Source of the DNA: Nitrospirota bacterium
Lineage (GTDB): Bacteria; Nitrospirota; 9FT-COMBO-42-15; HDB-SIOI813
Direction: 5' to 3'
NCBI GenBank assembly: GCA_016217665.1
Contig: JACRHF010000041.1
Span: forward strand, 1 to 52,271
DNA: 52,271 nt
The translations under genes and the position numbers were made by a program. The notes under the pieces are model-generated. The model worked only from the letters and a program-made list of their open reading frames with translations. It was not told the DNA's origin and made no database searches. Numbering within the stretch: the stretch's first letter is position 1; the number at the start of each line of letters is the position of its first letter. This document shows, piece after piece, positions 7,971-46,067 of the stretch.

Positions 7971-8187
7971 GTTGCACAGAAAACAGGGCATTACCAGGCA
8001 TCAAGTGCACAAAGACATAGAGAATGCCCAATATGGTGCGAGTAATAACACACATATTCTTCATACTCAGGGGGTTGATAGTCAACACTTGTGACCCCCT
8101 ATGGGAAACAAATTGAGGGACATATAAAGAAAGATCTTTCTGCCTTAGACTTCCCGTAATAAATTATTACTATTAAAAACAATTGAT

Positions 8188-8930: not shown

Positions 8931-8948
8931 AAGAACAATACCTCAATT

Positions 8949-9470: not shown

Positions 9471-9532
9471 AATCTAAGGCGTCAAGGAGGTTTTTTAGGG
9501 TTTTTGGGGTCTTTCAAGGGGTATGAAAGTAT

Positions 9533-9580
9533 AAAAGGGGACAGATTTATTTTACAGCAAAAATAAATCTGTCCCCTTTT
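9533..9580. repeat. REP hairpin: two inverted 21-nt units with a 6-nt loop
   Basis: AAAAGGGGACAGATTTATTTT / ACAGCA / AAAATAAATCTGTCCCCTTTT. Confidence 0.9.
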
Positions 9581-9593
9581 TTCTTTAGCGGCC

Positions 9594-26172: not shown

Positions 26173-26188
26173 TGGTATTCCTTTTGCT
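26173..26188 (+). promoter_or_regulatory. sigma54 (-24/-12) promoter for the cytochrome c-nirK-porin operon
   Basis: TGGTAT-TCCTT-TTGCT has the exact GG-N10-GC spacing of the TGGCAC-N5-TTGCW consensus. It lies ~53 nt upstream of the ATG at 26241, directly downstream of a sigma54 activator gene. Confidence 0.6.
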
Positions 26189-26240
26189 TAATAAAGAGTT
26201 TTGTAACTCGAATTCAATTTTACAGAAAGGAGGTGAGGTT

Positions 26241-26738
26241 ATGATCACGAAAACATGGACAAGAAGGGCATTCATAACAGCCCTGGTCGCCATCCCTTTA
26301 TTCTTCCTGATACTCCAGTATGTTGATATCACACCGGTATATTCCGCAGATGAACAGGCGTTAAAACCGAGGGTCCCTGCAGATAAACTGGCAGAAGTGC
26401 AGTCTTTAAAGAGTCCGATAGTGGCGAGCGAAAAGACCATTTCAACAGGCAAGGCCATCTTCCATGGAAAAGGGGTATGTGTTAACTGCCATGGCGAGGC
26501 AGGTAATGGGAAGGGTCCGATCGCAAACTCATTTGATCATCATCCGAGGGATTTCACGGATACGGATGATATTGGCTGGCAGAAGGCAAGGACAGATGGC
26601 GAGATATTCTGGGCCATTTCCAAGGGGACAGAATATGGCATGATTCCGTATGAGGATATGCTGAGTGAGGACGAGAGGTGGGCGCTTGTGGCCTATATCA
26701 GGAGTTTAGAAAATTCTGTAGTCGCGAATCATAAATAA
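26241..26738 (+). CDS. class I c-type cytochrome (monohaem), probable electron donor to NirK
   Basis: Signal anchor, then the haem motif CVNCH with the distal Met region [13 protein letters not shown] strong AGGAGGTG Shine-Dalgarno precedes the ATG at 26241. Confidence 0.8.
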
Positions 26739-26761: not shown

Positions 26762-27772
26762 ATGGCTAAGAAATATTTTTTTGGAGTGATGCTCCTGATC
26801 GGGGCAATGATTATCGGTACTCCTACGGGGAGTGATGCCGCAGATGAGGTTGCAAAACTGACGACAGCTCCTGAAGTGCCGCCGGCAATTACACGGCCTG
26901 GAGGGGCTAATGTCACTGTAGAACTGGAGACGACTGAAGTGAAAGGGCAATTGGCAGATGGCGTGGAATATACGTACTGGACATTTGGCGGAACAGTTCC
27001 AGGTCCAATGATCCGCGTTAAGGTGGGAGATAATATTACTTTCACCCTAAAGAACAGTGATGCAAGCAAAAATCCGCACTCGATAGATTTGCATGCTGTA
27101 ACAGGTCCTGGCGGCGGCGCTAAGGCCACCCTGACACTTCCGGGTGGGAAAACAGGGTTTTTCTTCAAGGCGCTGAATCCTGGTTTATATGTCTACCATT
27201 GTGCCGCTCCCCATATCCCGACCCATATTGCGAACGGGATGTACGGCCTCATCCTGGTAGATCCGGAAAAAGGTCTTCCCAAGGTAGACAAGGAATACTA
27301 TATCGTCCAGGGAGATTTCTATACGACCGGCAATACAGGTGAGAAAGGTGCGCAGGGTTTCTCTGTAGAGAAGGCAAGGGCAGAACAACCTACCTATGTT
27401 AAGTTTAATCCCATGGCTACCCCGGGTAATTTGAAGGCTAAAGTTGGGGAGAAGGTACGTCTCTATGTAGGCAATGGCGGCCCTAACCTTACATCGGCCT
27501 TTCATGTTATTGGGGAGATCTTTGACACGGTATATCAACTGGGCGCTGTAGGTTCTGACCCTGCCAAGAATGTCCAGACCACACTCATTCCACCGGGTGG
27601 TGCGGCGATTGTTGACTTCAAAGTGGATGTTCCAGGCAACTATATCCTTGTTGACCATGCCATCTTCCGGGCCATTGACAAGGGCGCTGTAGGGATCCTT
27701 GAGGTTGCAGGGCCCGATGTGCCGAATGTTTTCAAACCTCTCAAGACCGGGGGAGCTGATGCCGGGCATTAA
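26762..27772 (+). CDS. nirK: copper-containing nitrite reductase
   Basis: Type-1/type-2 Cu ligand pattern: HSIDLH (with the catalytic Asp), [18 protein letters not shown] (H-C...H...M), [10 protein letters not shown] (catalytic His) and LVDHAIF (third T2Cu His). A signal peptide is present. Confidence 0.85.
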
Positions 27773-27799: not shown

Positions 27800-29074
27800 A
27801 TGAAGCGAAAAAGATTATGGCTAATTCTGTTAACGATATTCGTTGTGGCAGGGTTGGTTAGTATCAGTTATGCCGAGGTGAAGTTAGGCGGAGAGCTGCG
27901 GGTACGGGGTGTTATGGTGGACAACAGTGACACGACCACTGCTGGCGCTAAGAAAGATGGAGGGTATTTTGAGCAGAGGACCCGGCTCAATGCAGATGCC
28001 TCGGTGGATGAGAATGCAAAGATCGTCATCCAGATTCAGGACAGCAGGAAGTGGGGAGAGAAAAAAGCTACTGGTGATAATACACTTGTAACTGGTCAGG
28101 ATGCCGAGGCCTTGGACCTTGCTCAGGGCTATGTGGAGATCGGAAAACTCTTCGATCAGCCGCTCTCAGTACGGTTGGGTCGCCAGGCCATGGCTTACGG
28201 CGAACACAGGCTTATCGGCACACTGGAGTGGAGCAACAATGCCAGGAGGTTTGACGCGCTGAAGTTTATCTACAAGCATGATGTCGTTGATGTGGATGTA
28301 TGGACGGCTAAGGTAGCAGAGAGTGGAGAAGACTGGGGGAACGATGATAATTTGAATGGCGTCTATGTGACTCTGAAGAGTATCCCCAAAAATGCTGTAG
28401 ATCTCTATCTGCTCCAGAAGATAGCAGGTGCTACTAACCTTAACTTCTATACTATCGGAGCCAGGGTAAAGGGTGGCGTTGAGAACGTCAACGTGGACTA
28501 TACAGCAGAGGTTGCCGTACAGACAGGTGATGCCAGCACTAATGTAGATAAAGGGGCTTCAGCCTATGCCATCAGGGCAGGTTATACAGTACCTAATGTT
28601 AAGGGATTAAGGGCAGGCGTAGAGTATGATGCCGCAACAGGGGACAAGTGTGTCACCTTTACTGGTACTACGTGTACCGACTCTGGCACTAAGAATGAGG
28701 CATTTGACAATCTCTATCCAACCAATCATTACCTCTATGGCTTTACAGATGATGTGAACTGGACCAATACGAATGCCTGGTCTCTCAATGTTAGCTTAAA
28801 GCCTATGGATAAGGTTAATCTCGCCGTTGAGTACTGGAACTATAAGACTGATCAGGAAAATTCAGCGGGTAAAGATGACAATGGAACGGAGATAAATGGG
28901 AAGCTTAATTATGAGCTGAGCAAGAATATTACATGTGAAGCGGCCTATGCGCTACGGGATGCTGGTGATTCAGCAGGACCAGCAAAAGCTTACGATAGCA
29001 GTACCTTTGGGAATATCCCGGCGGATAAAAGCGCATCCTTCGGTTATTTTTTGATTAATGTGAAGTTTAACTAA
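27800..29074 (+). CDS. outer-membrane beta-barrel porin, alginate-export-like family
   Basis: Signal peptide; LSVRLGRQAMAYGEHRLIGTLEWSNNARRFDALKF is characteristic of the family; the C-terminal residue is aromatic (KFN). Confidence 0.7.
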   Translation: MKRKRLWLILLTIFVVAGLVSISYAEVKLGGELRVRGVMVDNSDTTTAGAKKDGGYFEQRTRLNADASVDENAKIVIQIQDSRKWGEKKATGDNTLVTGQDAEALDLAQGYVEIGKLFDQPLSVRLGRQAMAYGEHRLIGTLEWSNNARRFDALKFIYKHDVVDVDVWTAKVAESGEDWGNDDNLNGVYVTLKSIPKNAVDLYLLQKIAGATNLNFYTIGARVKGGVENVNVDYTAEVAVQTGDASTNVDKGASAYAIRAGYTVPNVKGLRAGVEYDAATGDKCVTFTGTTCTDSGTKNEAFDNLYPTNHYLYGFTDDVNWTNTNAWSLNVSLKPMDKVNLAVEYWNYKTDQENSAGKDDNGTEINGKLNYELSKNITCEAAYALRDAGDSAGPAKAYDSSTFGNIPADKSASFGYFLINVKFN

Positions 29075-29133: not shown

Positions 29134-29158
29134 GGGGAAAGGGGCTTCCCCTTTCCCC
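29134..29158 (+). terminator. terminator-like GC hairpin after the porin gene
   Basis: GGGGAAAGGGG CTT CCCCTTTCCCC, an 11-bp stem. There is no clear T-run. Confidence 0.5.
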
Positions 29159-29385: not shown

Positions 29386-30810
29386 ATGATGCTAAAAGAG
29401 ATTGATGAAAGAACCGGCACTTTGTTATATGGATGGCTATTACTTGCCATCTCTTCTCTCGTATTTGCAGGGGTTTTTGCCTTTTTGATAGCCATGTCAA
29501 GGACCCCTCTGATTCAGGATTTTTTCTGGATAAAGGATTTTTTTCATAAAGGTCTTGTAGGCCATGTGATCCTGGCTTTTGTAATCTGGTTCCTCTCTTT
29601 TATGGGTGTGCTCTCGATAGTCTCTGCAGGATTAATTAGAAAAGGGAACTCCGGATTCAAGATGGGGTGGATAGGCCTTTTTAGTTCTTCAATAGGTACG
29701 TTTATGATAATAATCTCCACCCTCTCCGGATGGGGTTCTCCAAGACTTGCCAATTACATCCCTGTCTTGACCCATCCCATGTTTTATTTAGGGCTATTTC
29801 TTTTTGCTGCCGGCATATTTCTCCTTCTACTTGATATCCTACCAAATATCTTTAAGGACATTAACGAAAATGGGTCATCACTGATTGCCCATGGTATGGC
29901 CATAGCCGGGTTAACGGTCTTAATCGCCTTTATATGCTTTGGACTTGCATACTATTTTCTCCCCTCGCCGCAAATAGAAGGAGTTAATTTTGAGCTCCTC
30001 TTCTGGGGGGGGGGACATATACTTCAATTTACTAATACCATTTCGATGGTCGTTGTGTGGATTTTTTTGCTTCATTTAACCCTGGGGATTTTTCCCCTGC
30101 GGGAAGGCCTCATAAGAGTCCTTTTATGGGCCTATCTCTTATGTGTCCTTCCCGCCCCTCTTTACTTTTTCATTTATGACATCTCCACCCCGGAATATAA
30201 AAACAGCTTTACCCGTCTTATGGAATTTGGCATCGGTCCTCCAACAGGGATCATTATTATATCTATTATAGCGGCAATCATAAGACAGAGGATTCAGAAT
30301 AGAGAAAAACTCCCCTGGGGAAATCCCATGTTCTCTTCACTTGCCTTGTCTGTCTTAGTCTTTACACTGGGCGGGGTTATCTCCATGACCATAAGGGGTA
30401 GTAATGTGAAGATACCGGCCCACTATCATAGCGTAATAGGTGCAGTGACCCTTGCCTTTATGGGCATTACCTATCATCTCCTATCTTTGATAGACAGAGA
30501 GATCTATATGAAAAAGATTGGCAGGATTCAGCCTTATTTGTATGGTATGGGTGTATTAATATTTTCCCTGGGGCTCTTCTGGGCAGGTTCACACGGGGTT
30601 CCAAGAAAGACTGCCGGGGTTGCACAGAATCTTGATTCATACGGTAAGCTTGCTGGAATGGGTCTTATGGGACTCGGAGGGATTATTGCAATACTGGGAG
30701 GCGCAACCTTTGTCATTAATGCCATTTTCTCACTGTTAAAACGTAGAAAGACAGAAAATGTTGGGGCAGAAGAGGAGACTTATGGTAAAGAATATTCTGT
30801 CAATATTTAA
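29386..30810 (+). CDS. heme-copper oxidase subunit-I homologue lacking two of the three CuB histidines (paralogue A)
   Basis: 12-TM protein with the helix-II His (GLVGHVILAF), helix-VI LFWGGGHILQF and helix-X AHYHSVIG. Where B-family enzymes have HH, it has PLYFFIYDISTPEY. It is a paralogue of 44095-45492. Confidence 0.75.
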   Translation: MMLKEIDERTGTLLYGWLLLAISSLVFAGVFAFLIAMSRTPLIQDFFWIKDFFHKGLVGHVILAFVIWFLSFMGVLSIVSAGLIRKGNSGFKMGWIGLFSSSIGTFMIIISTLSGWGSPRLANYIPVLTHPMFYLGLFLFAAGIFLLLLDILPNIFKDINENGSSLIAHGMAIAGLTVLIAFICFGLAYYFLPSPQIEGVNFELLFWGGGHILQFTNTISMVVVWIFLLHLTLGIFPLREGLIRVLLWAYLLCVLPAPLYFFIYDISTPEYKNSFTRLMEFGIGPPTGIIIISIIAAIIRQRIQNREKLPWGNPMFSSLALSVLVFTLGGVISMTIRGSNVKIPAHYHSVIGAVTLAFMGITYHLLSLIDREIYMKKIGRIQPYLYGMGVLIFSLGLFWAGSHGVPRKTAGVAQNLDSYGKLAGMGLMGLGGIIAILGGATFVINAIFSLLKRRKTENVGAEEETYGKEYSVNI

Positions 30811-31639
30811 GATCAGGATAGGGATGCTGATCTCTTTCAGTGCTGTGGCAGGATATATTGTTGCTGAAAAGGGGACACCTTCTTTCCCCAGGATTTTCCT
30901 TCTTGCTGTGTTGACCCTTATGGCATCAGCCGGCGCAGGCGCTTACAATCAATACTACGACAGAGACATAGACGCGGTTATGAAAAGAACGGATAACCGC
31001 CCGTTACCATTGGGGGGAATCCGCTTAACTCATGGTGTAGCTTTTGCAGGAATCTTCCTCATCTTCCTGTCAGTTATCGGTGCCTTTTTCACTTTAAATT
31101 ACGTAGTATCACTGCATCTGTTTCTCGGTGCCTTTGTCTATGCAGTTATATACACAGTGTGGCTTAAGAGGCGAAGCTGGATCAATATAATAATCGGCGG
31201 GTTATCCGGCAGTTTTGCCGTACTTGCCGGAGGGGCGTCAGCGAACCCGGGGTTTTGTCTGCCTCCGATACTCCTTGCTGTTGTCTTATTTTTCTGGACT
31301 CCATCTCACTTCTGGAGTTTTGCTATAGTCCATAAAGAGGATTATCAAAAGGTCGGCATCCCAATGCTCCCTGTTATCCTCGATAATCATAAAAGCGCTT
31401 TATTGATACTATTAAACACCTTGTTCCTGTTTATCTCCTCACTGTTTCTTCTCTTTTTCGGCCATCTCGGTTTAATTTACGGTGTAATCGCCGTGTGTAC
31501 AGGAGTCTTTTTTATTGGAAGAAATCTTCAGCTCCTGATAAACCCAACAAAAGAAATCGCGTGGAAGAATTTTAAGGCATCTATAATCTATTTATCAATA
31601 ATCTTCATCGCTGTGATAGTAGACGTCAGTCTGAGCTAA
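30782..31639 (+). CDS. cyoE: protoheme IX farnesyltransferase (heme O synthase)
   Basis: UbiA-family motif NQYYDRDIDAVMKRTDNRPLP. A GAGGAG Shine-Dalgarno precedes the ATG at 30782. Confidence 0.88.
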   Translation: MVKNILSIFKIRIGMLISFSAVAGYIVAEKGTPSFPRIFLLAVLTLMASAGAGAYNQYYDRDIDAVMKRTDNRPLPLGGIRLTHGVAFAGIFLIFLSVIGAFFTLNYVVSLHLFLGAFVYAVIYTVWLKRRSWINIIIGGLSGSFAVLAGGASANPGFCLPPILLAVVLFFWTPSHFWSFAIVHKEDYQKVGIPMLPVILDNHKSALLILLNTLFLFISSLFLLFFGHLGLIYGVIAVCTGVFFIGRNLQLLINPTKEIAWKNFKASIIYLSIIFIAVIVDVSLS

Positions 31640-31641
31640 AG

Positions 31642-32553
31642 ATGATAAAAGGAATAAAAGGAATAAAAGGAATAATATTATCTATCCTGATCGTCTATTT
31701 TTATTTCACTACGATTACCCCTACCTTTTCCTCCGCCTTTGCCTCACAGCCTGAAGATTCAGAGGCGATCAGAGCAATGATGGCTGCTGAACAGTCAGTA
31801 GGGAAACAGATAGTGGATTATGTTTTTACAGACCAGGATGGAAACAGGTTTCATTTAAAGGATCTGTATAACAAACCTCTCATTATCAGTTTTGTCTACA
31901 CAAATTGTCCCCATACCTGTTCAACGATTACAGCAAGCCTGGCCGCTGCAGTAAAAGAAATCGAGAATCCACAACCCCCCCTTAATCCCCCTTTACTAAA
32001 GGGGGAAAGAGGGGGATTTGATGTTATGACCATAGGATTTGATTATGAGAGAGATACACCAGAGAGGATGCTGGAGTTTGGCAAGAGATTTACTAATGAC
32101 TTTAGCCACTGGAAGTTTGTAACTGCAGATAGAGATACCATCGAAAGATTCTCAAGGGATATTGGATTTTATTACACCAAAAGAGGGAATGATTTTAGTC
32201 ATTTAAATATGATCTCTATGATAGCAGGTGGGAAAGTATATCAACATATTTACGGGGTCAATATTAAGAGCAGTGATATTGTTACTCCATTAAATGAACT
32301 ATTGACAAAGAGAAGCGAAGGAAAAAGGCTGGCAAATCCTATAGGCTGGCGGGACAGGCTGATAACCATGTGTTCTTTGTACGATGAGTCTACTCAGACT
32401 TACAGGATCAATTACTACTATATAATCAGATTCTTTTTAGAACTTATGTCTCTCGCTGCTATCTTTTTCTTCATGTGGAAGAGGGAGGTCTATTCCCTTT
32501 ATACCCGTGTGATGATGACAATGGTAAGGATAAAAAGGAGAGGATATGCGTAA
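31642..32553 (+). CDS. SCO1/SenC copper chaperone with an in-frame repeat insertion and a C-terminal TM extension
   Basis: Thioredoxin-like CPHTC motif and conserved His (FSHLN). The insert is PQPPLNPPLLKGERGGFD. The N-terminus carries IKGIKGIKG from a 9-bp x3 tandem repeat (31645-31671). Confidence 0.8.
   Translation: MIKGIKGIKGIILSILIVYFYFTTITPTFSSAFASQPEDSEAIRAMMAAEQSVGKQIVDYVFTDQDGNRFHLKDLYNKPLIISFVYTNCPHTCSTITASLAAAVKEIENPQPPLNPPLLKGERGGFDVMTIGFDYERDTPERMLEFGKRFTNDFSHWKFVTADRDTIERFSRDIGFYYTKRGNDFSHLNMISMIAGGKVYQHIYGVNIKSSDIVTPLNELLTKRSEGKRLANPIGWRDRLITMCSLYDESTQTYRINYYYIIRFFLELMSLAAIFFFMWKREVYSLYTRVMMTMVRIKRRGYA
31973..32019. repeat. G/C-run palindromic element inside the SCO1 gene
   Basis: AACCCCCCCTTAATCCCCCTTTACTAAAGGGGGAAAGAGGGGGATTT, read in the same frame (PLNPPLLKGE) as the lipB copy. 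Confidence 0.85.
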
Positions 32554-32585: not shown

Positions 32586-32750
32586 ATGCCTGAAGAAAAA
32601 AAGATTTCCGGGTGGCAGGTTTTAATGGATGATATTTCTATGCTGTTTCTACTGGGGGTGGTAATTCCAACAGTGCTTTATGTTATATGGGGAGTTATGG
32701 AGTATGCATTTGCTCCGACATTTTCTCTTCCACCAGGTCCCACACCCTAA
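32586..32750 (+). CDS. small single-TM protein in the position of ba3-type subunit IIa
   Basis: 54 aa, MPEEKKISGWQVLMDDISMLFLLGVVIPTVLYVIWGV. An AGGAGGTG Shine-Dalgarno lies 7 nt upstream. The longer track ORF (from 32475) overlaps the end of SCO1. Confidence 0.55.
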   Translation: MPEEKKISGWQVLMDDISMLFLLGVVIPTVLYVIWGVMEYAFAPTFSLPPGPTP

Positions 32751-32781
32751 TCATTTAATTTAATCTAAATGGAGGAAAATT

Positions 32782-33306
32782 ATGCCGATAACATCTCCTG
32801 AAAAATACTGGTGGAAACCAGCAGATAAGGAAGAAAAAATATGGATTTCCATCGCATTATTATGGTGCCTTGTGCTGACGATCATGATGCCCCTTATGCA
32901 TCTAATAGGTACTCAGAACCCTTCAGTCAATCCGATGAAGATCAGACCACAGGATTACAGGACAGTGAGTGAGGCATTTATAGAAAAATATAAGGTTGGA
33001 GAAGAGCAGGGTATTCCTGTTGTTGAACCACCTGATGGCGCAGATGTGTACCTTAGGGCGCAGATGTGGACATGGACTCCTATACTGAAACTCAAGAAGG
33101 GTGTAAATTATAAGTTCCATATATCGTCAGTGGACCTGATGCATGGATTTTCACTGATGCCGCTTGTTATGAATTTTCAGGTAGTGCCAGGCCATGACAA
33201 TATATTAAACATGACGCCTACATCAGCCGGGACATTCCATATCATCTGTAATGAGTTTTGTGGGATAGGCCACCATACAATGGTAGGTAAAATAATCGTG
33301 AGTTAG
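32782..33306 (+). CDS. B-family-type HCO subunit II (single TM plus cupredoxin with a CuA site)
   Basis: VDLMHGF and CNEFCGIGHHTM give the H...C-x3-C-x3-H-x2-M CuA ligands. Size and layout resemble ba3 subunit II. Confidence 0.85.
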   Translation: MPITSPEKYWWKPADKEEKIWISIALLWCLVLTIMMPLMHLIGTQNPSVNPMKIRPQDYRTVSEAFIEKYKVGEEQGIPVVEPPDGADVYLRAQMWTWTPILKLKKGVNYKFHISSVDLMHGFSLMPLVMNFQVVPGHDNILNMTPTSAGTFHIICNEFCGIGHHTMVGKIIVS

Positions 33307-33369
33307 GGGAGGAACTGCCTCTTTCTGTGCAGCATTCTCTAACACTTTTGGAAAAGGGGGGTAGAAAAG

Positions 33370-34905
33370 ATGGCAAGTGAATTAGTGTTTAGAACCTGTC
33401 CCATTACAGGGAAAAAGGTTTATGCAGTCACTCAAAACCTGATATGGATAAATGCAGTAACAGCAGTAGTGTTTATCCTTGTAGGCGGGATAATGGCATT
33501 TCTGGTTGGGATGACACGCTGGCCTGCAGTCCATCTGCTGCCTGCTGACCTGTTTTATAGATTCCTGACAGCCCATGGACTGAATATGCTCATATTCTGG
33601 ATCATATTCTTTGAGATAGCAGGTCTATATTTCGGATCTTCAGTTTTGCTTAATTCAAGACTTGCGGCGCCAAAGGTTGCATGGCTGGCATATATCCTGA
33701 TGCTTGTTGGGGCAGTTCTGGTTGATATCATGGTATTCACCGGTAAGGCAGACGTAATGTTCAGCTCTTATGTCCCGTTGCAGGCTGATCCGAAATACTA
33801 CCTTGGGATTATCCTTTTTGCTGTCGGCGCCCTGATAGGATGCGGCATCTTTTTTGGGACATTGGCAATAGCCAAGGCAGAAAAGACCTATGAGGGGTCT
33901 GTTCCTCTGGTCACTTTTGGTTTAGCTGCGGCTGCCATCATTGCTGTTTTCACCCTCGCATGTGGCGCCATAATTTATATACCGACATTCCTGTGGTCTC
34001 TTGGGCTGATAACAAACTTAGACCCGGGTGTATACAGGTTAATCTTCTGGGGAATGGGCCATTCGTCTCAACAGATAAACGTAACAGCAATGGTCTCTAT
34101 ATGGTATCTCTTAGGAGCGTTGACTGTTGGGGCAAAGCCTGTTAATGAGAAGATATGCAGAAGCGCATTTTTCCTTTATATCTTGTTTATCAATCTTGCT
34201 TCAGAGCATCACCTTCTGACAGACCCTACTTTAAGTCCGTACCATAAGATGGTAAATACCTCTTACTTCATGTATCTGGCGGTGCTTGCCAGTATGATCC
34301 ATGCCCTGGCAATCCCAATGATGGTTGAGGTTGCCCAGCGGAAGAAGGGATTTACAAAAGGACTATTTGAATGGCTCACAAAGGCGCCATGGGGCGAACC
34401 TGGTTTTCCAGCCATGATCTTTTCCCTCTTCATATTCGGTTTTATAGGTGGTATCACAGGTGTGGTCTATGGTACAGAACAGCTCTCCATAAAGAGTCAT
34501 AACACATGGGCTATGACTGGTCATTTCCACGCTACTGTTGTAGGTGGAACCACCCTTGCCTTTATGGGCCTTACCTATTATGTGATTCCCCTCATCTTCA
34601 GGCGGGAGCTTATCGGGAAAAAACTGGCTGTCGTCCAGCCGTATATCTTTGGCATTGGAATAATTCTGATTGCATTAGGTATGGGAGGCGCTGGAACACT
34701 GGGTTCACCAAGAAGACACTGGGATATTACCTTTGCTCAGTCAGTTATTCCATTCTCATTTGACCCTGCTGTAATATTTTTTACAACAATAGCTGCCATA
34801 GGTGTATTAACCGCAGTGACAGGCGGGGCCATGTATGTTGGTGTGTCTGTGCTTTCAGTTTTCTTTGGCAGGAAGATGGCCGCCAATGAGGCCAAACTAT
34901 TATAG
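33370..34905 (+). CDS. B-family-like HCO subunit I lacking the His-Tyr cross-link tyrosine (candidate NO reductase or atypical oxidase)
   Basis: Helix VI reads FWGMGHSSQQINV (Gln where ba3 has Tyr). The CuB pair is retained (ASEHHLLTDPTLSPYHKM). Helix X reads TGHFHATVVGG. Confidence 0.8.
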   Translation: MASELVFRTCPITGKKVYAVTQNLIWINAVTAVVFILVGGIMAFLVGMTRWPAVHLLPADLFYRFLTAHGLNMLIFWIIFFEIAGLYFGSSVLLNSRLAAPKVAWLAYILMLVGAVLVDIMVFTGKADVMFSSYVPLQADPKYYLGIILFAVGALIGCGIFFGTLAIAKAEKTYEGSVPLVTFGLAAAAIIAVFTLACGAIIYIPTFLWSLGLITNLDPGVYRLIFWGMGHSSQQINVTAMVSIWYLLGALTVGAKPVNEKICRSAFFLYILFINLASEHHLLTDPTLSPYHKMVNTSYFMYLAVLASMIHALAIPMMVEVAQRKKGFTKGLFEWLTKAPWGEPGFPAMIFSLFIFGFIGGITGVVYGTEQLSIKSHNTWAMTGHFHATVVGGTTLAFMGLTYYVIPLIFRRELIGKKLAVVQPYIFGIGIILIALGMGGAGTLGSPRRHWDITFAQSVIPFSFDPAVIFFTTIAAIGVLTAVTGGAMYVGVSVLSVFFGRKMAANEAKLL

Positions 34906-34964
34906 GTACAGGCAATAGGGTTTCATAAATGATGAGATTGGAAAATTAATAGAGGAGGTTTGTT

Positions 34965-35099
34965 ATGGAAGAAAAACATGAGGATGACTTTCCAGCGCCA
35001 GGCACCTTTGTCATTATTATGATCTTTTTAGCTATGTTTGTTTTGTTCTATTTCTTAAACTGGAAGTGGTTGTCCATGGTCTGGAATATTGGAAAATGA
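34965..35099 (+). CDS. 44-aa single-TM peptide resembling ba3 subunit IIa (not in the ORF track)
   Basis: MEEKHEDDFPAPGTFVIIMIFLAMFVLFYFLNWKWLSMVWNIGK. An AGGAGG Shine-Dalgarno at 34953-34958 lies 6 nt upstream. From memory, the Thermus subunit IIa also begins MEEK. Confidence 0.55.
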   Translation: MEEKHEDDFPAPGTFVIIMIFLAMFVLFYFLNWKWLSMVWNIGK

Positions 35100-35140
35100 G
35101 GGGTATACCCTCGGGGCGCATATAGATAGTTTCTGAATGG

Positions 35141-35186
35141 GCAGTAATTTTATCATGATGCTATGATAAAATTACTGCTTTTTTTT
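35141..35186 (+). terminator. strong rho-independent terminator
   Basis: GCAGTAATTTTATCAT / GATGCT / ATGATAAAATTACTGC (16-bp stem), followed by T8. Confidence 0.85.
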
Positions 35187-35350: not shown

Positions 35351-37465
35351 ATGGGTTCTTTAGGAAGAAGAATCGTACATACTATTGATGGTTGGACAGA
35401 TCGTATCATCCCGCCTAAATATAATCCATTATACTGGCTGGGCACACTATGTTTCGTTTCCCTGATGCTGATACTTATAACCGGTAGTTACCTGTTTTTA
35501 TTTTATAAGACCGGCGCCCCTTACGAATCAGTTCAGTACCTTACTGTCAACCAATGGTATATTGGCGGCTATTTGCGGAGTATACACCGCTATGCCTCTG
35601 ACGGGTTAATTTTGTTCATGACGCTTCACCTCGTGCGTGAGTTTCTTCTCGGCAGATACCGTCAGTGGAGATGGTTATCCTGGGTTTCAGGTGCTGCCCT
35701 CCTGGTTGCCTGTCTTATCCTTGGAATTATGGGATACTGGCTGGTTTGGGATGGACGGGCCCAGTTAATTGCCCAGAAGACCGCCCAATTACTTAATGAT
35801 ATCCCAATATTTGTTGAGCCACCTTCACGCTCATTTTTAAGTGGTGATACCATCAGCAAGATGTTGTTCTTTGTCCTCCTTCTGGGACATATAGGCATAT
35901 CACTGATAGGTATCAGCGCTTTAGTATTTATACATACATCGAGAAATGCCAGGCCAGTGCTTAAACCTCCGCGCGCAATTTCTGTTGCACTAGTGATTGT
36001 GCTCTCTGCATTATCCTTCATTGTCCCGGCTACTAATGCCCCAATGGCTGATCTGGCTAAGCTGCCAATTAATATTCCTTTTGATTGGTTCTTTTTATTT
36101 GTGTATCCATTAACCTCTGCCCTGTCGAAGCGGGCCTTCTGGTTCACATCCGCCAGCGGCGCCTTATTACTTTTTACAGCGCCATGGATTGGAAGATTCA
36201 GAAAGCCTCCGGCAGCACAGGTAATTCTGGAGAAGTGTGTCGGTTGTGAGCAATGCAATAAAGACTGTCCCTATGAAGCCATCAGAATGGTCCCCAGAAA
36301 AGACGGGAGGCCATATCTCCTGCAGGCAGAGGTGCTGGTTAACAGGTGTGCAAGTTGCGGTATCTGTGTCGGCTCATGTGATTCTAAAGCGGCTGACCTT
36401 CCTGACAGGACATTGGAGCAAACAGAAAAGGAGATAACCAGACTTTTAAATCTGCCGCAAAAGCAGGGTAGTGGGCCAAAGATACTGGGTCTGGTATGTG
36501 AAAAGAACATCAGGCTGGATAAGTTTATAAATGCAGAAAACAAAAGTCTTAAAGGGATGCCAAATGTTTTCGTTATTACATTCGTCTGTTCCGGTATGAT
36601 TCATCACTCCACGATTGAATATGCCCTTGCATCAGGTGCAGAGGGTGTATTTGTAAGCGGCTGTCAGATAGAGGAATGTTACTACCGTGAAGGTTCCAGG
36701 TGGTCGCATGCAAGGTTGATGGGAGAGAGGGCGCCTGTTGTCTTACCATTGAAAGGCACAACAAGCGACTACTCACGAATCCGTTCATACCGGCTATCTC
36801 CTCTCCGGGCCAAAGACCTCATAAATAAGATAGGTCTCTTTCAAAAAGAACTTGAGCAGAAAACTTCTGTCAGGGCCTACAGGCCTATAGAGACTATGAT
36901 ACCCGGGGAAGGGACATACAAGAAAGTGGCGGCACTTTGCATTATTCCACTGCTTTTGCTGCCTGCCTTCCTCATCTCCTTTCTGTCCACAAAACCAACA
37001 TACCCTTTCTATAGCAAAGACAACGCGTTAATAAAATTTACCTTCCAGCATTCTGGTAAACAGGAGGATTGTAAGGAAATAACTGAGAAAGAAACAGAGA
37101 GTAAACTTAAACATATGAGGAAGACAAACTCCCCTTATTCCCGCATGAGGATGGATTGTGCGAGAAAGAGGCTTCCCAGTTATGTAGAGTTAGATTTAGA
37201 CAGGAGAAATATATTATCCAGGGTCTATCACCCTACAGGCCTGAGCGGTGACGGGTCCACATTTGCCTATGAGGAAATACCTATAGCCCCAGGGACACAT
37301 GAAGTCACGGTCAGAATGAGGGATACCAAAGATGTCAGCAATTTTGACTATAACTTTGAAAAGAAAATAAACCTTGAAGCAGGACAAGTCGCTGTCATTG
37401 ATTTTGACAGTGATAACAATAAATTTCACATCATGGGGCAGAGTGAGGAGGAAAAAGGTGAATAA
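35351..37465 (+). CDS. fusion protein: dihaem cytochrome b6-like membrane domain, 2x[4Fe-4S] ferredoxin domain, MvhD/FlpD-like domain, an extra TM and a ~170-aa C-terminal domain
   Basis: Haem His pairs IHRYASDGLILFMTLH and GHIGISLIGISALVFIH. A PEWY-like PFDWFFLFVYP. CVGCEQCNKDCP and CASCGICVGSCD. FlpD-like VCSGMIHHSTIEYALASGAEGVFVSGCQIEECYYREGS. Confidence 0.8.
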   Translation: MGSLGRRIVHTIDGWTDRIIPPKYNPLYWLGTLCFVSLMLILITGSYLFLFYKTGAPYESVQYLTVNQWYIGGYLRSIHRYASDGLILFMTLHLVREFLLGRYRQWRWLSWVSGAALLVACLILGIMGYWLVWDGRAQLIAQKTAQLLNDIPIFVEPPSRSFLSGDTISKMLFFVLLLGHIGISLIGISALVFIHTSRNARPVLKPPRAISVALVIVLSALSFIVPATNAPMADLAKLPINIPFDWFFLFVYPLTSALSKRAFWFTSASGALLLFTAPWIGRFRKPPAAQVILEKCVGCEQCNKDCPYEAIRMVPRKDGRPYLLQAEVLVNRCASCGICVGSCDSKAADLPDRTLEQTEKEITRLLNLPQKQGSGPKILGLVCEKNIRLDKFINAENKSLKGMPNVFVITFVCSGMIHHSTIEYALASGAEGVFVSGCQIEECYYREGSRWSHARLMGERAPVVLPLKGTTSDYSRIRSYRLSPLRAKDLINKIGLFQKELEQKTSVRAYRPIETMIPGEGTYKKVAALCIIPLLLLPAFLISFLSTKPTYPFYSKDNALIKFTFQHSGKQEDCKEITEKETESKLKHMRKTNSPYSRMRMDCARKRLPSYVELDLDRRNILSRVYHPTGLSGDGSTFAYEEIPIAPGTHEVTVRMRDTKDVSNFDYNFEKKINLEAGQVAVIDFDSDNNKFHIMGQSEEEKGE

Positions 37466-38771
37466 TGTATCAGACCATAGGGTATTACTGACGAGGGATA
37501 TCCCTATGAGTGACTTCCCCTCTTTGGAAACAATCTTTATAGACATGTATGTTGCAAAGAATGGTTATAAGGCAGCGACTAAAGCCCTTCAGGAGATGAA
37601 GCCAGGAGATATTATCGAGGAAGTAAAGAAGTCTGGATTGCGTGGTCGTGGCGGCGGTGGATTCCCAACAGGAAAAAAATGGGAAATGGTGGCCGGAGCA
37701 GCAGGAGAGGAAAAGCATGTCTGCTGCAATGCCGCCGAGGGGGAACAGGAAACATTTAAAGACCGGTGTCTTATACGTTCAAACCCGCATCAATTAATTG
37801 AAGGAATCATTATTGCCTCCTATGCAGTCGGTGCCCATGTGTCTTATTTATATGTCAATGAAAACTATCGTGAAGAGATTACGTTGCTTGAGAAGGCGCT
37901 AAAAGAGGCTCAGGGAAAAGGGTATATCGGTAAAAAAATTCTGGGAACAGATTTCTCACTGGATATTCATATTCAGAAGTGTCCTGATCAATATGTTGCT
38001 GGCGAAGAAACGGCAATGATAGAGGTCATAGAAGGCAGGGCGGCCAAGCCATGGCAAAAGCCCCCTTATTATCCTGCTAACAGGGGCATCTATGGAAATC
38101 CGACCCTTGTAAATAATACAGGAACCTTGTCAAACATACCTCATATTGTCCTTAAAGGCGGCGATTGGTTTTCTCAAGTCGGCTCTCGACAGAACCCAGG
38201 AACAATGCTTTTTACCCTCACCGGTGATATAAACAGACCTGGTATATATGAGTTGCCACTGGGAACCACACTTAGCAAACTTATCAGCAATTGTGGTAAT
38301 GGTTTAAAGGATGGGAGAAGATTTAAGGCAGCCTTTCTGCCGGGTAATTCCCCTCTCACAGAATCACATCTTGAAATCCGCCTTGACTTTGAATCATTAA
38401 AAGAGGCCGGCTCAGGGCTCGGTTGTGCTGCTGTCACTGTCCTGGGGGATGGAACCTGTGCAGTAGCTACAACACTGAAATTTTCCAGGTTTTTTATGAA
38501 TGAGTCATGCGGACAATGCCCCCCCTGCCAGATGGGAACTGCCAATATGGCCATACTGCTTCAGAAAATTGAAGATGGTCATGGAAAAATAGAAGACCTT
38601 GCCGCCATTGAAAACATATGCAGCCTTTCAAAGGGGCAGGGCTACTGTCAGCTTCTATCAGGGGCTGTCTTTGTTGTTGAAGGTGCAATCAGACACTTCA
38701 GAAAGGAGTTTGAGGCCCACATCCATGAAAAGAGATGTCCTCTGCAAAGCAGTTCCGGCAATACGTTATAA
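37458..38771 (+). CDS. NuoF-like NAD(P)H-binding FMN / [4Fe-4S] flavoprotein
   Basis: GLRGRGGGGFPTGKKW (FMN/NADH site), GEETAMIEVIEG, and N3-type cluster ESCGQCPPCQMG...C. The GTG at 37458 has a GAGGAGG Shine-Dalgarno and overlaps the upstream stop (GTGAATAA). Confidence 0.8.
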   Translation: MNNVSDHRVLLTRDIPMSDFPSLETIFIDMYVAKNGYKAATKALQEMKPGDIIEEVKKSGLRGRGGGGFPTGKKWEMVAGAAGEEKHVCCNAAEGEQETFKDRCLIRSNPHQLIEGIIIASYAVGAHVSYLYVNENYREEITLLEKALKEAQGKGYIGKKILGTDFSLDIHIQKCPDQYVAGEETAMIEVIEGRAAKPWQKPPYYPANRGIYGNPTLVNNTGTLSNIPHIVLKGGDWFSQVGSRQNPGTMLFTLTGDINRPGIYELPLGTTLSKLISNCGNGLKDGRRFKAAFLPGNSPLTESHLEIRLDFESLKEAGSGLGCAAVTVLGDGTCAVATTLKFSRFFMNESCGQCPPCQMGTANMAILLQKIEDGHGKIEDLAAIENICSLSKGQGYCQLLSGAVFVVEGAIRHFRKEFEAHIHEKRCPLQSSSGNTL

Positions 38772-38783
38772 AATCTACTTAGA

Positions 38784-40274
38784 TTGAAGAAATTATCCCT
38801 CTATATTGAAGACTGGGCCAACAGGTGTTTCTCGCCCCGATTCAATCCCTTCTATTACCTTGGAGCAATATCCACCCTCTTTTTCATTATCCTGTTAATA
38901 AGTGGTATATACCTGTTTATATTTTACAGGACCAACAGCCCTTATCAGATAGTCCAGGATTTAACTGAAAAACAATGGTATCTGGGTGGCATTATGAGGA
39001 GTATTCATAGATATGCCTCTGATGGCCTGATAATCTCCCTCCTCCTGCATACCCTGCGTGAATATGTTAACGGTAGATACAGTCACTACAGATGGCTGGC
39101 CTGGGTCTCCGGCGTTATACTTTTTATTATCAGTTTGATATTAGGTATTTCAGGCTACTGGCTGGTATGGGACCAAAGGGCCCAGTTAATTGCCCTGAAG
39201 ACATCAGAACTGTTAAATGATGTGCCCCTTTTTATTGAACCTCCATCCAGGTCTTTTCTCAGCAATGAGTCCCTCAGTGGAATGCTCTTTTTCCTTTTGC
39301 ATTTTTTGCATTCAGCTTTACCGTTTGCCATGCTGATACTCATAGGCATACACATCATGAGATGTTCACGCCCGGTACTCAAGACACCTAAGGTTATAAC
39401 GATTGCTGTAATAATCATGCTGCTTATGGTATCTGTTATTAAGCCTGCCACCAGCGCCAAACCTGCAGACCTGAATAGATTACCCCTAACCCCCCCGTTT
39501 GATTGGTTCTTCTTTTTCATATACCCGGTGAAGTCTATTCTTTCAAAACCCATCTTCTGGTCGATGACTACAGGTGTAATCATGATACTCTTTATAATAC
39601 CCTGGATTAAAAGGCATAGGCCGCCTGTTGCACAGGTTGTATTAGAAAACTGCACAGGCTGTGACCAGTGTAATAAGGATTGTCCCTATGGGGCCATCCG
39701 TTTACAGCCCCGCACAGACAGGTTAGCCTATAAAATGGAGGCTGTTATTATGCCTGAGAGATGTGCTGCCTGCGGTATATGTGTAGGAGCCTGCGATTTT
39801 AATGCCGTCAATCTCCCTGGTATGAATGATGTACAGATTAAGGAAGATATAATCAATCTTTTATCTGGCATTCAACGGATAGACAAAAAACCAAAGATAC
39901 TGCTGTGGGTCTGCAAACAAAGCATAAGATTTAATGGTACATTGGATATCATAAAAAGGATGACAAATGTTAAAATTATATCATTGCCCTGTATTGGCAT
40001 GATTCAATCTGAGATGATAGAGGCAGGATTTAATGCCGGCGCAGACGGTATTTTTATCTGCAGTTGCGTGATGGGTGATTGTCAGTACCGTAAAGGCAAC
40101 ATCTGGCTGCAGGAAAGGCTGAGAGACAAAAGACCGCCGCTACTGAATAAAAGAGTTGACCGACGTAGAATCAGGGAATACTGGATGTCGCCTGTCCATA
40201 CTACAAGACTTGTTGCAGAAATAGATCTCTTTGAAGAGGAGCTTAGTGCCTATCATATATCCGGATCTACTTAA
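38784..40274 (+). CDS. paralogous cytochrome b6-like / 2x[4Fe-4S] / MvhD-like fusion (shorter; no C-terminal extension)
   Basis: IHRYASDGLIISLLLH, LHSALPFAMLILIGIH, PFDWFFFFIYP, CTGCDQCNKDCP, CAACGICVGACD, PCIGMIQSEMIEAGFNAGADGIFICSCVMGDCQYRKGN. The apparent start is TTG with no obvious Shine-Dalgarno. Confidence 0.75.
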   Translation: MKKLSLYIEDWANRCFSPRFNPFYYLGAISTLFFIILLISGIYLFIFYRTNSPYQIVQDLTEKQWYLGGIMRSIHRYASDGLIISLLLHTLREYVNGRYSHYRWLAWVSGVILFIISLILGISGYWLVWDQRAQLIALKTSELLNDVPLFIEPPSRSFLSNESLSGMLFFLLHFLHSALPFAMLILIGIHIMRCSRPVLKTPKVITIAVIIMLLMVSVIKPATSAKPADLNRLPLTPPFDWFFFFIYPVKSILSKPIFWSMTTGVIMILFIIPWIKRHRPPVAQVVLENCTGCDQCNKDCPYGAIRLQPRTDRLAYKMEAVIMPERCAACGICVGACDFNAVNLPGMNDVQIKEDIINLLSGIQRIDKKPKILLWVCKQSIRFNGTLDIIKRMTNVKIISLPCIGMIQSEMIEAGFNAGADGIFICSCVMGDCQYRKGNIWLQERLRDKRPPLLNKRVDRRRIREYWMSPVHTTRLVAEIDLFEEELSAYHISGST

Positions 40275-45611: not shown

Positions 45612-46067
45612 ATGTTCAGACTGAGCAGGGCCGCAGAGTATGGCGTGAGGGGGATCCTTTATCTTGCCAGCAACTATTCTGAAGACAAGGTCTCTGTGAT
45701 CGAAGAGATATCAAAGGCGCAGGATGTCCCGTTGCCTTATATGGCGAAGCTGTTTCAGACATTGGCCAGGAAGGGGTTTGTTAAGTCGTTCAAAGGGCAG
45801 AAGGGTGGGTTTGTCCTTACCAGGCATCCGAAAGAGATCAGCCTGTTGGAGGTGATAGAGGCGATGGAAGGACCTATCTTCTTAAATGTCTGTCTTTTTC
45901 ATGAGGGTTATTGTCCAAGAGATAAGGTGTGTTCTGTCCATGAGGTATGGGCAGAGGCGCAGAAAAGGCTTGTAGATTATCTAAGGGGGTGTAACTTTGC
46001 AGAGATGGCAATCTCGGCAGCAAAGAAAACAAAAGCGTTTAATCAAAAGAAAGGAGGGCCAAAATGA
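45612..46067 (+). CDS. Rrf2-family Fe-S cluster transcriptional regulator (NsrR/IscR-like)
   Basis: N-terminal wHTH (RAAEYGVRGILYLA...ISKAQDVPLPYMAKLFQTLARKGFV) and cluster ligands CLFHEGYCPRDKVCSVH. Confidence 0.85.
   Translation: MFRLSRAAEYGVRGILYLASNYSEDKVSVIEEISKAQDVPLPYMAKLFQTLARKGFVKSFKGQKGGFVLTRHPKEISLLEVIEAMEGPIFLNVCLFHEGYCPRDKVCSVHEVWAEAQKRLVDYLRGCNFAEMAISAAKKTKAFNQKKGGPK

What the first reader, a model, noticed from the sequence alone, without database searches (positions are those of the whole stretch)
32586..35099. B-family-like heme-copper enzyme with CuA but Gln in place of the cross-linked Tyr: candidate NO reductase next to NirK
**Seen in sequence.** Subunit II has a complete CuA site (H...CNEFCGIGHHTM). 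Subunit I retains all six metal-ligand histidines. Helix VI reads GHSSQQINV where ba3-type oxidases have GHPIVYFW (ba3 sequence recalled from memory). The catalytic His-Tyr cross-link Tyr therefore aligns with Gln, and the pocket gains Ser/Gln/Asn. Two short single-TM ORFs flank the pair: 32586-32750, and the 44-aa MEEK... peptide at 34965-35099, which is not in the ORF track. They resemble ba3 subunit IIa.

**Established knowledge.** Several B-family-related HCO clades that lack the Tyr have been proposed, and in at least one case shown, to be NO reductases. The Bacillus CuA-NOR shows that CuA-dependent NORs exist.

**Inference.** This enzyme is more likely an NO reductase than an O2 reductase. 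With NirK 5 kb upstream, it would complete nitrite -> NO -> N2O.
Basis: partly seen in the sequence, partly recalled or inferred. Interest (0 to 1): 0.65.

Follow-up and report, generated by a model that had tools for sequence, protein, structure and literature searches.

The report
eNOR-type nitric oxide reductase operon
This gene pair encodes a member of the already described eNOR family of nitric oxide reductases, which are relatives of ba3-type oxidases whose catalytic tyrosine is replaced by glutamine; it sits in the usual eNOR operon near a copper nitrite reductase, so it is a correct but ordinary finding.

Summary
Subunit II (32782-33306) has a complete CuA site. Subunit I (33370-34905) keeps all six metal-ligand histidines, and Gln235 sits where ba3 oxidase has the cross-linked Tyr237. 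Both flanking single-helix ORFs are real, conserved genes.

The interpretation (NO reductase rather than O2 reductase) is supported, but it is not new. Gln at the Tyr site is the published diagnostic of the eNOR family. The Rhodothermus marinus eNOR was purified and reduces NO but not O2.

- GH-x-x-Q-Q-x-N is invariant in 81/81 sequences from many phyla.
- The window protein falls in the Gln clade (98% NJ bootstrap). It is 41-86% identical to that clade's members in the tree and 25-28% identical to canonical B-family oxidases.
- K-channel-like residues are conserved (subunit II Glu18; subunit I Tyr246, Ser308, His311).
- The operon (small TM, II, I, 13th helix, heme o synthase, SCO1, cyt b-FeS proteins) matches published eNOR operons.
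- The closest genome relative has NirK directly upstream.

The downstream 44-aa ORF is a detached C-terminal helix of subunit I, not a IIa analogue.

Verdict: new member of a known kind, low interest. Side observations are a His-poor HCO-like paralogue and the cyt b-FeS-NuoF module.

The parts
33370..34905 (+). eNOR subunit I (511 aa, 12 predicted TM helices). His ligands are H69, H231, H280, H281, H385, H387. Gln235 replaces the cross-linked Tyr. Family signature is GHSSQQIN (residues 230-237).
34072..34074 (+). Codon of Gln235, the diagnostic eNOR residue at the ba3 Tyr237 position.
   Evidence: (Q in 81/81)
32782..33306 (+). eNOR subunit II: one TM helix plus a cupredoxin domain with a complete CuA site (H121, C156, C160, H164, M167). 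Glu18 aligns with the ba3 K-channel entrance Glu15.
32586..32750 (+). Conserved 54-aa single-TM peptide upstream of subunit II. By position it is a possible analogue of ba3 subunit IIa; this was not testable by sequence.
34965..35099 (+). 44-aa single-TM peptide, the detached C-terminal helix of subunit I. It is fused to subunit I in 61 of 75 related loci and separate in 14.
35139..35180 (+). 19-bp-stem hairpin followed by a T-run, the likely terminator of the eNOR operon.
   Evidence: consensus scan only
31642..32553 (+). SCO1/SenC copper chaperone, a conserved member of eNOR operons.
   Evidence: (50/80 loci)
30758..31639 (+). Heme o synthase (CtaB/CyoE), a conserved member of eNOR operons.
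   Evidence: 43/80 loci; TIGR01473, 270.6 bits against a cut-off of 210.3
29386..30810 (+). HCO-like paralogue (474 aa) lacking the helix-VII His-His pair. It is the first gene of the apparent operon and overlaps the ctaB start. Function unknown; it may be an accessory or scaffold protein.
26762..27772 (+). Copper-containing nitrite reductase NirK, the likely NO source.
   Evidence: TIGR02376, 333.8 bits against a cut-off of 296.3; adjacent to eNOR in L001
26184..26738 (+). Mono-heme c-type cytochrome (probable start 26241), a candidate electron donor to NirK and to CuA.
35351..40274 (+). Cyt b-[4Fe-4S]-FlpD fusion protein (35351-37465), NuoF-like flavoprotein (37374-38771) and a second cyt b-FeS-FlpD protein (38784-40274). 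This module accompanies eNOR across phyla.
   Evidence: (65/80 loci)

Best explanation
Genes 32586-35099 encode a four-polypeptide eNOR-type nitric oxide reductase, a heme-copper-superfamily enzyme derived from B-family (ba3-like) oxidases.

**Proposed mechanism**
- Electrons enter from a periplasmic carrier through the binuclear CuA centre of subunit II. The c-type cytochrome encoded next to nirK is a candidate carrier.
- They pass to the low-spin heme (His69/His387), and then to the high-spin heme (His385) and the three-His non-heme metal site (His231, His280, His281).
- There, two NO molecules are reduced to N2O.
- NO reduction needs only two electrons, so the redox-active His-Tyr cofactor is dispensable. 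Gln235 replaces it, with Gln234 and Asn237 also lining the pocket.
- Protons probably arrive from the cytoplasm through a K-channel-like path (subunit II Glu18; subunit I Tyr246, Ser308, His311). That would make the reaction electrogenic.
- Heme o synthase and SCO1 in the same operon supply the prenylated heme and the copper. CtaA lies 15 kb downstream.
- NirK, 5 kb upstream, supplies NO, so the locus encodes nitrite -> NO -> N2O.

**Shown here:** the sequence features, the family placement and the conserved synteny.

**Inferred from the characterised R. marinus enzyme and from ba3:** the activity, the heme type, the identity of the non-heme metal and the proton uptake.
For: - Gln235 aligns with ba3 Tyr237, and all six His ligands are present.
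- The CuA ligands and the Glu15 equivalent are present in subunit II.
- Literature: Gln at this site defines eNOR. R. marinus eNOR reduces NO and not O2, carries heme As, and has K-channel-like residues including the Ser309 equivalent; many eNOR operons carry ctaA.
- H69, H231, Q234, Q235, N237, Y246, Y270, H280, H281, S308, E320, H385 and H387 are invariant in 81/81 sequences. H311 is present in 80/81.
- The Gln clade is recovered in 98% of 200 NJ bootstraps and contains the window protein. Identity is 41-86% within the clade and 25-28% to canonical B-family oxidases including ba3.
- There is no Tyr at the C-family -6 position (Leu/Ile in 81/81). The window's own CcoN has Tyr there.
- The AF2 model (pTM 0.81) best matches ba3 and the Aquifex B-type oxidase, with TM-scores of 0.80-0.86.
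- The operon order (small TM, II, I, TM13, ctaB, sco1, cyt b-FeS) recurs in most of 80 loci. It matches the Ferrigenium straubiae eNOR operon, whose products were found in the proteome under denitrifying conditions.
- NirK is a bona fide equivalog hit. It is directly adjacent to the operon in the 87%-identical locus L001.
Against: - No activity, heme or metal data exist for this protein or any close (>60% identical) relative.
- I could not obtain the R. marinus (Rmar_0161) sequence. Co-clustering with the characterised enzyme therefore rests on the published Gln criterion, shared operon structure and host range, not on a direct alignment.
- The measured turnover of R. marinus eNOR is low (0.68 NO per s at 25 C), so a different physiological substrate cannot be strictly excluded.
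- No nosZ or nitrate reductase is in the window, so the wider pathway is unknown.
Confidence: 0.85

Rival explanations
1. It is a B-family-type terminal O2 reductase that works without the His-Tyr cofactor, or that uses another residue as the fourth electron donor.
For: The closest solved structures are ba3-type O2 reductases. The nearest non-Gln relatives keep Tyr in the motif GH[ST][LA]QY[VI]N at 35-46% identity, so the ancestor was probably an O2 reductase. The organism is clearly aerobic or microaerobic, with A-family and cbb3 oxidases and CtaA in the window.
Against: Gln is invariant at the Tyr site in 81/81 sequences. No Tyr sits at the C-family alternative position. The only purified family member showed no O2 reduction with several donors. 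The window already encodes two canonical O2 reductases.
Confidence: 0.04
2. The enzyme does reduce NO, but its role is NO detoxification or homeostasis in an aerobe that carries NirK, not energy-conserving denitrification.
For: No nar, nap or nos genes are in the 52-kb window. The window does hold two O2 reductase clusters. Related loci carry ScdA_N and DUF1858 genes, domains I recall from memory as typical of NO-stress (RIC-type) proteins, next to the operon. The Ferrigenium preprint also raises a detoxification role.
Against: Conserved K-channel-like residues and the tight association with a cyt b-FeS/NuoF module look like a bioenergetic rather than a purely protective design. eNOR was highly expressed under denitrifying conditions in Ferrigenium. 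This rival concerns physiology, not the enzyme's chemistry.
Confidence: 0.25
3. It catalyses a different reaction on an N- or O-species (for example NO dismutation, N2O reduction or peroxide reduction), and the Gln pocket reflects that chemistry.
For: Other Tyr-less HCO clades have been proposed as NO dismutases or N2O reductases. The reported NO turnover of eNOR is modest.
Against: Those proposals concern qNOR- and cNOR-related clades, not B-family-derived ones. N2O production from NO was measured directly for R. marinus eNOR. The active-site motif is identical across the clade.
Confidence: 0.04

Closest known systems
eNOR family (Hemp & Gennis 2008; Murali et al. 2024, PMC11214002): Rhodothermus marinus Rmar_0161, the Magnetospirillum 'cytochrome a1-like' protein, the Ferrigenium straubiae eNOR operon
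   Same: Gln at the cross-link Tyr site; three-His metal site; CuA subunit II; K-channel-like residues including the Ser309 equivalent; B-family ancestry; operon with heme o synthase, sco1 and cyt b-FeS proteins; routine mis-annotation as cytochrome c oxidase.
   Different: The 13th helix of subunit I is a separate 44-aa gene, as in 14 of 75 related loci. Glu279 precedes the HH pair where Ala is usual, in 10 of 81 sequences. ctaA is not in the operon but 15 kb away. An HCO-like paralogue leads the operon. The host is an uncultured bacterium; the closest relatives (85-92% identical) come from groundwater metagenomes, and two of them carry Thermodesulfovibrionia or Nitrospinota labels.
B-family O2 reductase, cytochrome ba3 of Thermus thermophilus (1EHK, 1XME)
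   Same: Overall fold (TM-score 0.80); six His ligands; CuA subunit II with a single TM helix; an extra single-TM peptide; a single K-type channel with Glu15(II), Tyr248 and Ser309 equivalents.
   Different: Tyr237 -> Gln235, Thr312 -> His311, Tyr244 -> Val242, Ser261 -> Asn259. Helix VI reads GHSSQQIN instead of GHPIVYFW. Identity is only 25-28%. Membership fails on the defining Tyr.
Tyr-retaining clade or grade with the motif GH[ST][LA]QY[VI]N (representatives P0243, P0244, P0245, P0261)
   Same: These are the nearest non-eNOR relatives (35-46% identity). They share the Q-x-x-N part of the helix VI motif and the HH pair.
   Different: They keep Tyr at the cross-link position, so they are presumably O2 reductases. 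They do not form a single clade in the NJ bootstraps (0%). Together with the Gln clade they are recovered as one group in 79%. Uncharacterised as far as I could find.
bNOR (qCuANOR of Bacillus azotoformans) and sNOR
   Same: B-family-derived, Tyr-less NO reductases with a cupredoxin subunit. bNOR is electrogenic.
   Different: Their active-site residue is Asn, not Gln. sNOR lacks the Ser309 equivalent, which is invariant here. Not members of the same family.

Membership tests
eNOR | Gln at the position of the cross-linked active-site Tyr (helix VI, His+4) | tested here: met
   Gln235 lies over ba3 Tyr237. Q is present in 81/81 family sequences. The criterion is stated in PMC8756737.
eNOR | No Tyr migrated to another position that could form the cross-link | tested here: inconclusive
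   By sequence this is met: the C-family -6 position is Leu/Ile in 81/81, and the window's own CcoN has Tyr251 there as a control. Invariant Tyr270 lies at -10 and aligns with ba3 Phe272.
eNOR | All six heme and non-heme-metal His ligands retained | tested here: met
   H69, H231, H280, H281, H385, H387.
eNOR | CuA-containing cupredoxin subunit II encoded next to subunit I | tested here: met
   H121, C156, C160, H164 and M167 align with the ba3 CuA ligands. These positions (H121 in HGF, CNEfCGiGHH, M167) are at least 90% conserved across the 81-sequence subunit II alignment.
eNOR | One conserved K-channel-like proton path resembling that of the B family (including the Ser309 equivalent) | tested here: met
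   Ser308, Tyr246 and His311 are invariant or nearly so. Glu18 of subunit II lies over ba3 Glu15. Function of the path was not tested.
eNOR | Phylogenetic placement in the B-family-derived Gln clade | tested here: met
   NJ tree with 200 bootstraps: Gln clade 98%, window protein inside it. This is a crude distance method.
eNOR | Direct clustering with the biochemically characterised R. marinus enzyme (Rmar_0161) or a hit to the authors' curated eNOR HMM | not testable with these tools
   The sequence and the HMM were not obtainable. The paper's supplements are not held, and R. marinus was not among the 80 best genome loci.
eNOR | NO reductase activity without O2 reductase activity; heme As in both heme sites | not testable with these tools
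   Biochemical properties reported for R. marinus eNOR only.
eNOR | Operon context with heme o/heme a synthesis and copper chaperone genes | tested here: met
   ctaB and sco1 lie directly upstream and are conserved in 43 and 50 of 80 loci. ctaA is at 50250-51182. The context matches the Ferrigenium operon.
B-family O2 reductase (ba3 type) | Cross-linked His-Tyr cofactor (Tyr at His+4 in helix VI) | tested here: not met
   Gln235 at that position.
sNOR / bNOR | Asn at the active-site position | tested here: not met
   Gln, not Asn.
gNOR | One metal-ligand His replaced by Asp; subunit II without CuA ligands | tested here: not met
   All three His are present and CuA is complete; criteria.
cNOR / qNOR / nNOR | Glu as fourth FeB ligand at the active site; cytochrome c or fused quinol-type partner (cNOR/qNOR) | tested here: not met
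   Gln at the diagnostic site, a CuA partner, and closest relatives in the B family rather than the C family.

The most novel reading that the evidence does not exclude
The operon may encode more than the two-subunit eNOR described so far. Two additions are possible. First, the HCO-like paralogue that leads the operon could be a dedicated eNOR accessory protein, either handling or scaffolding prenylated heme or acting as an alternative heme-only catalytic subunit. It keeps the heme ligands and one metal-site His, has lost the His-His pair, and repeatedly sits directly upstream of heme o synthase. Second, the cyt b-FeS-FlpD plus NuoF-like module found beside eNOR in about 80% of loci could couple NO reduction to quinol:NAD+ (reverse) electron flow in a supercomplex.
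Probability: 0.2. Interest if true: 0.6.

Novelty: new member of a known kind. Interest (0 to 1): 0.25.

Why it matters
eNOR genes are still routinely annotated as cytochrome c oxidase. [quoted passage not shown] Recognising them changes the predicted nitrogen metabolism of the host: with NirK, this uncultured bacterium becomes a potential N2O producer under microoxic conditions. Its closest relatives are groundwater metagenome sequences labelled Thermodesulfovibrionia or Nitrospinota. This adds a data point rather than a concept, because the family, its diagnostic residue, its activity and its operon are published. The operon-level companions (the HCO-like paralogue and the cyt b-FeS/NuoF module) are the only parts where new biology might still be found.

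Tried and rejected
- **Linking to the characterised enzyme.** The PNAS supplements are not held. The single genome scan returned only the 80 closest loci, with no Rhodothermus, Magnetospirillum or Ferrigenium among them. The link therefore rests on published criteria.
- **Small peptides against the PDB at E <= 10.** No hits, so the subunit IIa resemblance cannot be tested by sequence.
- **Long-form eNOR (P0100) against the PDB.** This was meant to show whether the C-terminal helix aligns with ba3 helix XIII. The alignment stops at residue 482, so the result is undetermined.
- **Exact-sequence lookup of the window protein.** Not on record.
- **Sigma-54 promoter scan.** The total count is at chance level (21 found against 21.85 expected). 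Only the position of the 26173-26188 site is suggestive.
- **First bootstrap script.** It timed out and was redone with a faster distance routine.
- **Literature search for 'eNOR' plus 'Nitrospin'.** The one other hit I opened (the Black Sea paper) matched only on 'enormous'; the only eNOR paper listed mentions Nitrospinae solely in connection with a cytochrome domain, not eNOR. No report of eNOR in Nitrospinota was found.
- **Structural model.** It gave fold confirmation only.
- **Families considered and rejected.** sNOR/bNOR (Asn), gNOR (Asp, no CuA) and nNOR/cNOR/qNOR (Glu) were rejected on their defining residues.
Full report
**1. What is in the sequence**

The + strand between 24.7 and 40.3 kb carries a dense respiratory cluster:

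| Coordinates | Product |
|---|---|
| 21976-24669 | Sensor kinase |
| 24678-26051 | Sigma-54-type response regulator |
| 26184-26738 | Mono-heme cytochrome c |
| 26762-27772 | NirK (TIGR02376, 333.8 bits against a cut-off of 296.3) |
| 27800-29074 | Alginate-export-like outer-membrane porin |
| 29386-30810 | 474-aa HCO-like protein |
| 30758-31639 | Heme o synthase |
| 31642-32553 | SCO1 |
| 32586-32750 | 54-aa single-TM peptide |
| 32782-33306 | Subunit II |
| 33370-34905 | Subunit I |
| 34965-35099 | 44-aa single-TM peptide |
| 35351-37465, 38784-40274 | Two cyt b-[4Fe-4S]-FlpD fusion proteins |
| 37374-38771 | NuoF-like flavoprotein, between the two fusion proteins |

Hairpins with T-runs lie at 29134-29158 and 35139-35180. 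They suggest one transcription unit running from the HCO-like gene to the 44-aa ORF. All four eNOR genes have GGAGG-type ribosome-binding sites.

**2. Check of the observation**

- Subunit I is a full-length PF00115 protein.
- Its best solved relatives are T. thermophilus ba3 (E about 1e-39) and the Aquifex B-type oxidase.
- The alignment places GHSSQQINV over GHPIVYFWL. His231 therefore corresponds to His233 and Gln235 to Tyr237. The HH pair (280/281) and the helix II and helix X histidines (69, 385, 387) also align.
- Subunit II aligns with ba3 subunit II. All CuA ligands are present, and Glu18 lies over the K-channel entrance Glu15.

**3. The small ORFs**

- The upstream peptide has homologues in 56 of 80 related loci.
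- The downstream peptide has homologues in 75 of 80 loci. In 61 of these the homologous segment (…PGTxxLVxxFFxxFVLYYFVNWKYL…) is the C-terminal extension of a 560-600-aa subunit I. In 14 it is a separate ORF, as here.
- The separate-ORF cases are mostly MAGs labelled Nitrospirota, Nitrospinota, Deltaproteobacteria or Chloroflexota.
- The 44-aa ORF is thus a detached last helix of subunit I.
- B-family subunit I has 13 helices (from memory), so this would be helix XIII. Sequence alignment could not confirm that.
- The upstream peptide occupies the gene position expected for a IIa-like helix, but no sequence similarity to any PDB chain exists.

**4. Family assignment**

Published work gives an explicit diagnostic. 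PMC8756737 Table A4 lists oxygen reductases with Y at this site, cNOR/qNOR with E, sNOR with N, and eNOR with Q plus one proton channel. The same paper selected eNOR ingroup sequences by this Gln.

Murali et al. 2024 describe eNOR as follows:
- derived from the B family and partnered with a CuA subunit;
- carrying K-channel-like residues, including the Ser309 equivalent;
- containing heme As, often with ctaA in the operon;
- in the case of the purified R. marinus enzyme, an NO reductase with no O2 reductase activity.

The window protein meets every sequence-level criterion. Across the window protein plus 80 species-representative genomes, H69, H231, Q234, Q235, N237, Y246, Y270, H280, H281, S308, E320, H385 and H387 are invariant, and H311 is present in 80/81. 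[quoted passage not shown]

**5.

A search of 1.84 billion cluster representatives supplied full-length relatives at decreasing identity. An NJ tree with 200 bootstraps gave these results:
- The Gln clade is recovered in 98% of replicates and contains the window protein. The window protein pairs with a Nitrospinota-labelled sequence (P0006) in 100%.
- The nearest neighbours form a Tyr-retaining grade with the motif GH[ST][LA]QY[VI]N, at 35-46% identity.
- Canonical GHP[LIV]VYFW B-family oxidases, including ba3, are at 25-28% identity.

So subunit I does not fall inside a clade of O2 reductases.

For the second test, the C-family alternative Tyr lies six residues before the HH pair. The window's own fused cbb3 CcoN shows it (FFYPFVGIHH). 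The eNOR set has Leu/Ile there in 81/81 sequences. The only invariant helix VII Tyr (Tyr270) is ten residues before His280 and aligns with ba3 Phe272. I infer it is too deep in the membrane to reach His231, but I could not measure this.

The AF2 model (pLDDT 75, pTM 0.81) matches ba3 and 7DEG with TM-scores of 0.80-0.86. Only B- and A-family oxidases were among the listed fold matches, so no eNOR structure appears to have been solved.

**6. Context**

The order small TM, II, I, (helix XIII), ctaB, sco1, cyt b-FeS-FlpD recurs across phyla. Counts among the 80 loci are cyt b-FeS 65, sco1 50 and ctaB 43, and many loci are truncated.

It matches the Ferrigenium straubiae eNOR operon described in a 2026 preprint. 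There the cyt b-FeS(-FAD-NADH) proteins are proposed to form a quinol:NAD+ oxidoreductase, and the products were detected in the proteome under denitrifying conditions.

The closest relatives are:
- a groundwater-metagenome protein at 92% identity;
- a Hainich groundwater MAG labelled Thermodesulfovibrionia at 87% (L001);
- a Nitrospinota-labelled MAG at 85%.

L001 has cyt c and NirK immediately upstream of the small peptide. This ties nirK to the operon more tightly than the 5-kb spacing in the window suggests.

The window also encodes a fused cbb3 oxidase, an A-family oxidase cluster, CtaA and a second CtaB. This fits the published view that eNOR hosts denitrify under microoxic conditions, because heme a synthesis needs O2.

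**7. Mechanism**

The mechanism is inferred from ba3 and from R. marinus eNOR. Electrons flow from a periplasmic cytochrome c to CuA, then to the low-spin heme, then to the high-spin heme and three-His metal site, where 2 NO + 2 e- + 2 H+ give N2O + H2O. Protons are taken from the cytoplasm through Glu18(II), Tyr246, Ser308 and His311, which would conserve energy by charge separation. The identity of the non-heme metal (Fe or Cu) is unknown.

**8. Verdict**

The novelty is low: this is a new, mis-annotatable member of the known eNOR family, with minor variations (a split helix XIII, Glu279 before the HH pair, and an HCO-like paralogue leading the operon).

The side observations below are the more open questions. 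Even there, a similar His-poor HCO ('OccS') and the cyt b-FeS module have already been noted in preprints.

Noticed in passing
window 29386-30810 (+) and 44095-45492 (-); also L002, L008, L022, L042, L043, L057, L069, L075, L080, L082-L084: These are two paralogous (50% identical) full-length HCO-like proteins. They keep the helix II His, a helix VI 'E..FWGGGHxLQFxN' His and the helix X 'PxHYH'. The helix VII His-His pair is replaced by 'PAPxxYF' in all 20 aligned members, so they cannot form a three-His metal site. They form a clade with 100% bootstrap support, have no NCBIfam hit, and are named 'cbb3-type oxidase subunit I' by PGAP. They recur directly upstream of heme o synthase or after the cyt b-FeS genes of eNOR operons. 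They resemble the description of 'OccS' in 'Ca. Dechloromonas occultata' (bioRxiv 695007) and may be the Ferrigenium 'eNOR scaffold protein'; neither link was tested.
   Followed up: partly
window 35351-40274 (+): Two cyt b(PetB-like)-2x[4Fe-4S]-FlpD fusion proteins flank a NuoF-like FMN/NADH flavoprotein. A cyt b-FeS homologue lies beside eNOR in 65 of 80 loci from many phyla, so it is far more general than the 'rather unusual' feature described for Ferrigenium. That preprint proposes a quinol:NAD+ oxidoreductase.
   Followed up: partly
window 40886-43807 (+): A single 973-aa ORF fuses CcoN, CcoO (FixO) and two cytochrome c domains (CcoP-like), giving a fully fused cbb3-type oxidase. Its CcoN part has the expected helix VII Tyr.
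   Followed up: no
window 45612-46067 (+), next to 44095-45492 (-): An Rrf2-family regulator is divergently placed from the second HCO-like gene. Its hits to IscR, NsrR and RirA are all below their cut-offs. Weak (23-33% identical) Rrf2-like matches also precede eNOR subunit II in about 12 loci, mostly from Gemmatimonadota, where an NO- or Fe-S-sensing regulator is a possibility.
   Followed up: no
window 26173-26188 (+): A -24/-12-like element, TGGTATTCCTTTTGCT, lies about 50 nt upstream of the probable cytochrome c start, right after the sigma-54-type response regulator gene. The motif count in the whole window is at chance level, so only its position is suggestive.
   Followed up: partly
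representatives P0243, P0244, P0245, P0261; P0308, P0317, P0323, P0367, P0379: Two further uncharacterised B-related groups appeared. One is a Tyr-retaining grade with the motif GH[ST][LA]QY[VI]N, next to eNOR. The other is a clade (100% bootstrap) whose helix VII reads 'LYH' (first His of the pair lost) and whose helix VI reads 'FHxxHYxP'.
   Followed up: partly
window 33370-33420 (subunit I residues 7-17) and residue 279: An invariant N-terminal motif, FRTCPxTG (Arg8, Cys10, Thr13 and Gly14 invariant in the 21-sequence alignment), is predicted as a small beta-hairpin before helix I and is absent from the ba3 alignment. Separately, Glu279 directly precedes the HH pair only in the subclade nearest the window (10 of 81 sequences; Ala elsewhere).
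   Followed up: no
L081 1-2700, L083 4000-6800, L084 40-3900 (not in the window): A recurrent divergent cluster sits beside eNOR or HCO-like genes in related contigs. It comprises NifU, a small ferredoxin, a roughly 135-aa protein hitting PF00115, cupin or DUF1858, ScdA_N and an Mrp/ParA-type Fe-S assembly protein. ScdA_N is, as far as I recall, the N-terminal domain of the RIC/YtfE iron-centre repair proteins, which would suggest a link to NO stress.
   Followed up: no
window 7055-7750 (-) and 8000-10000: An IS200-like (Y1) transposase gene lies next to a GC dip (0.43 against about 0.52 in the flanks), possibly a small inserted element.
   Followed up: no
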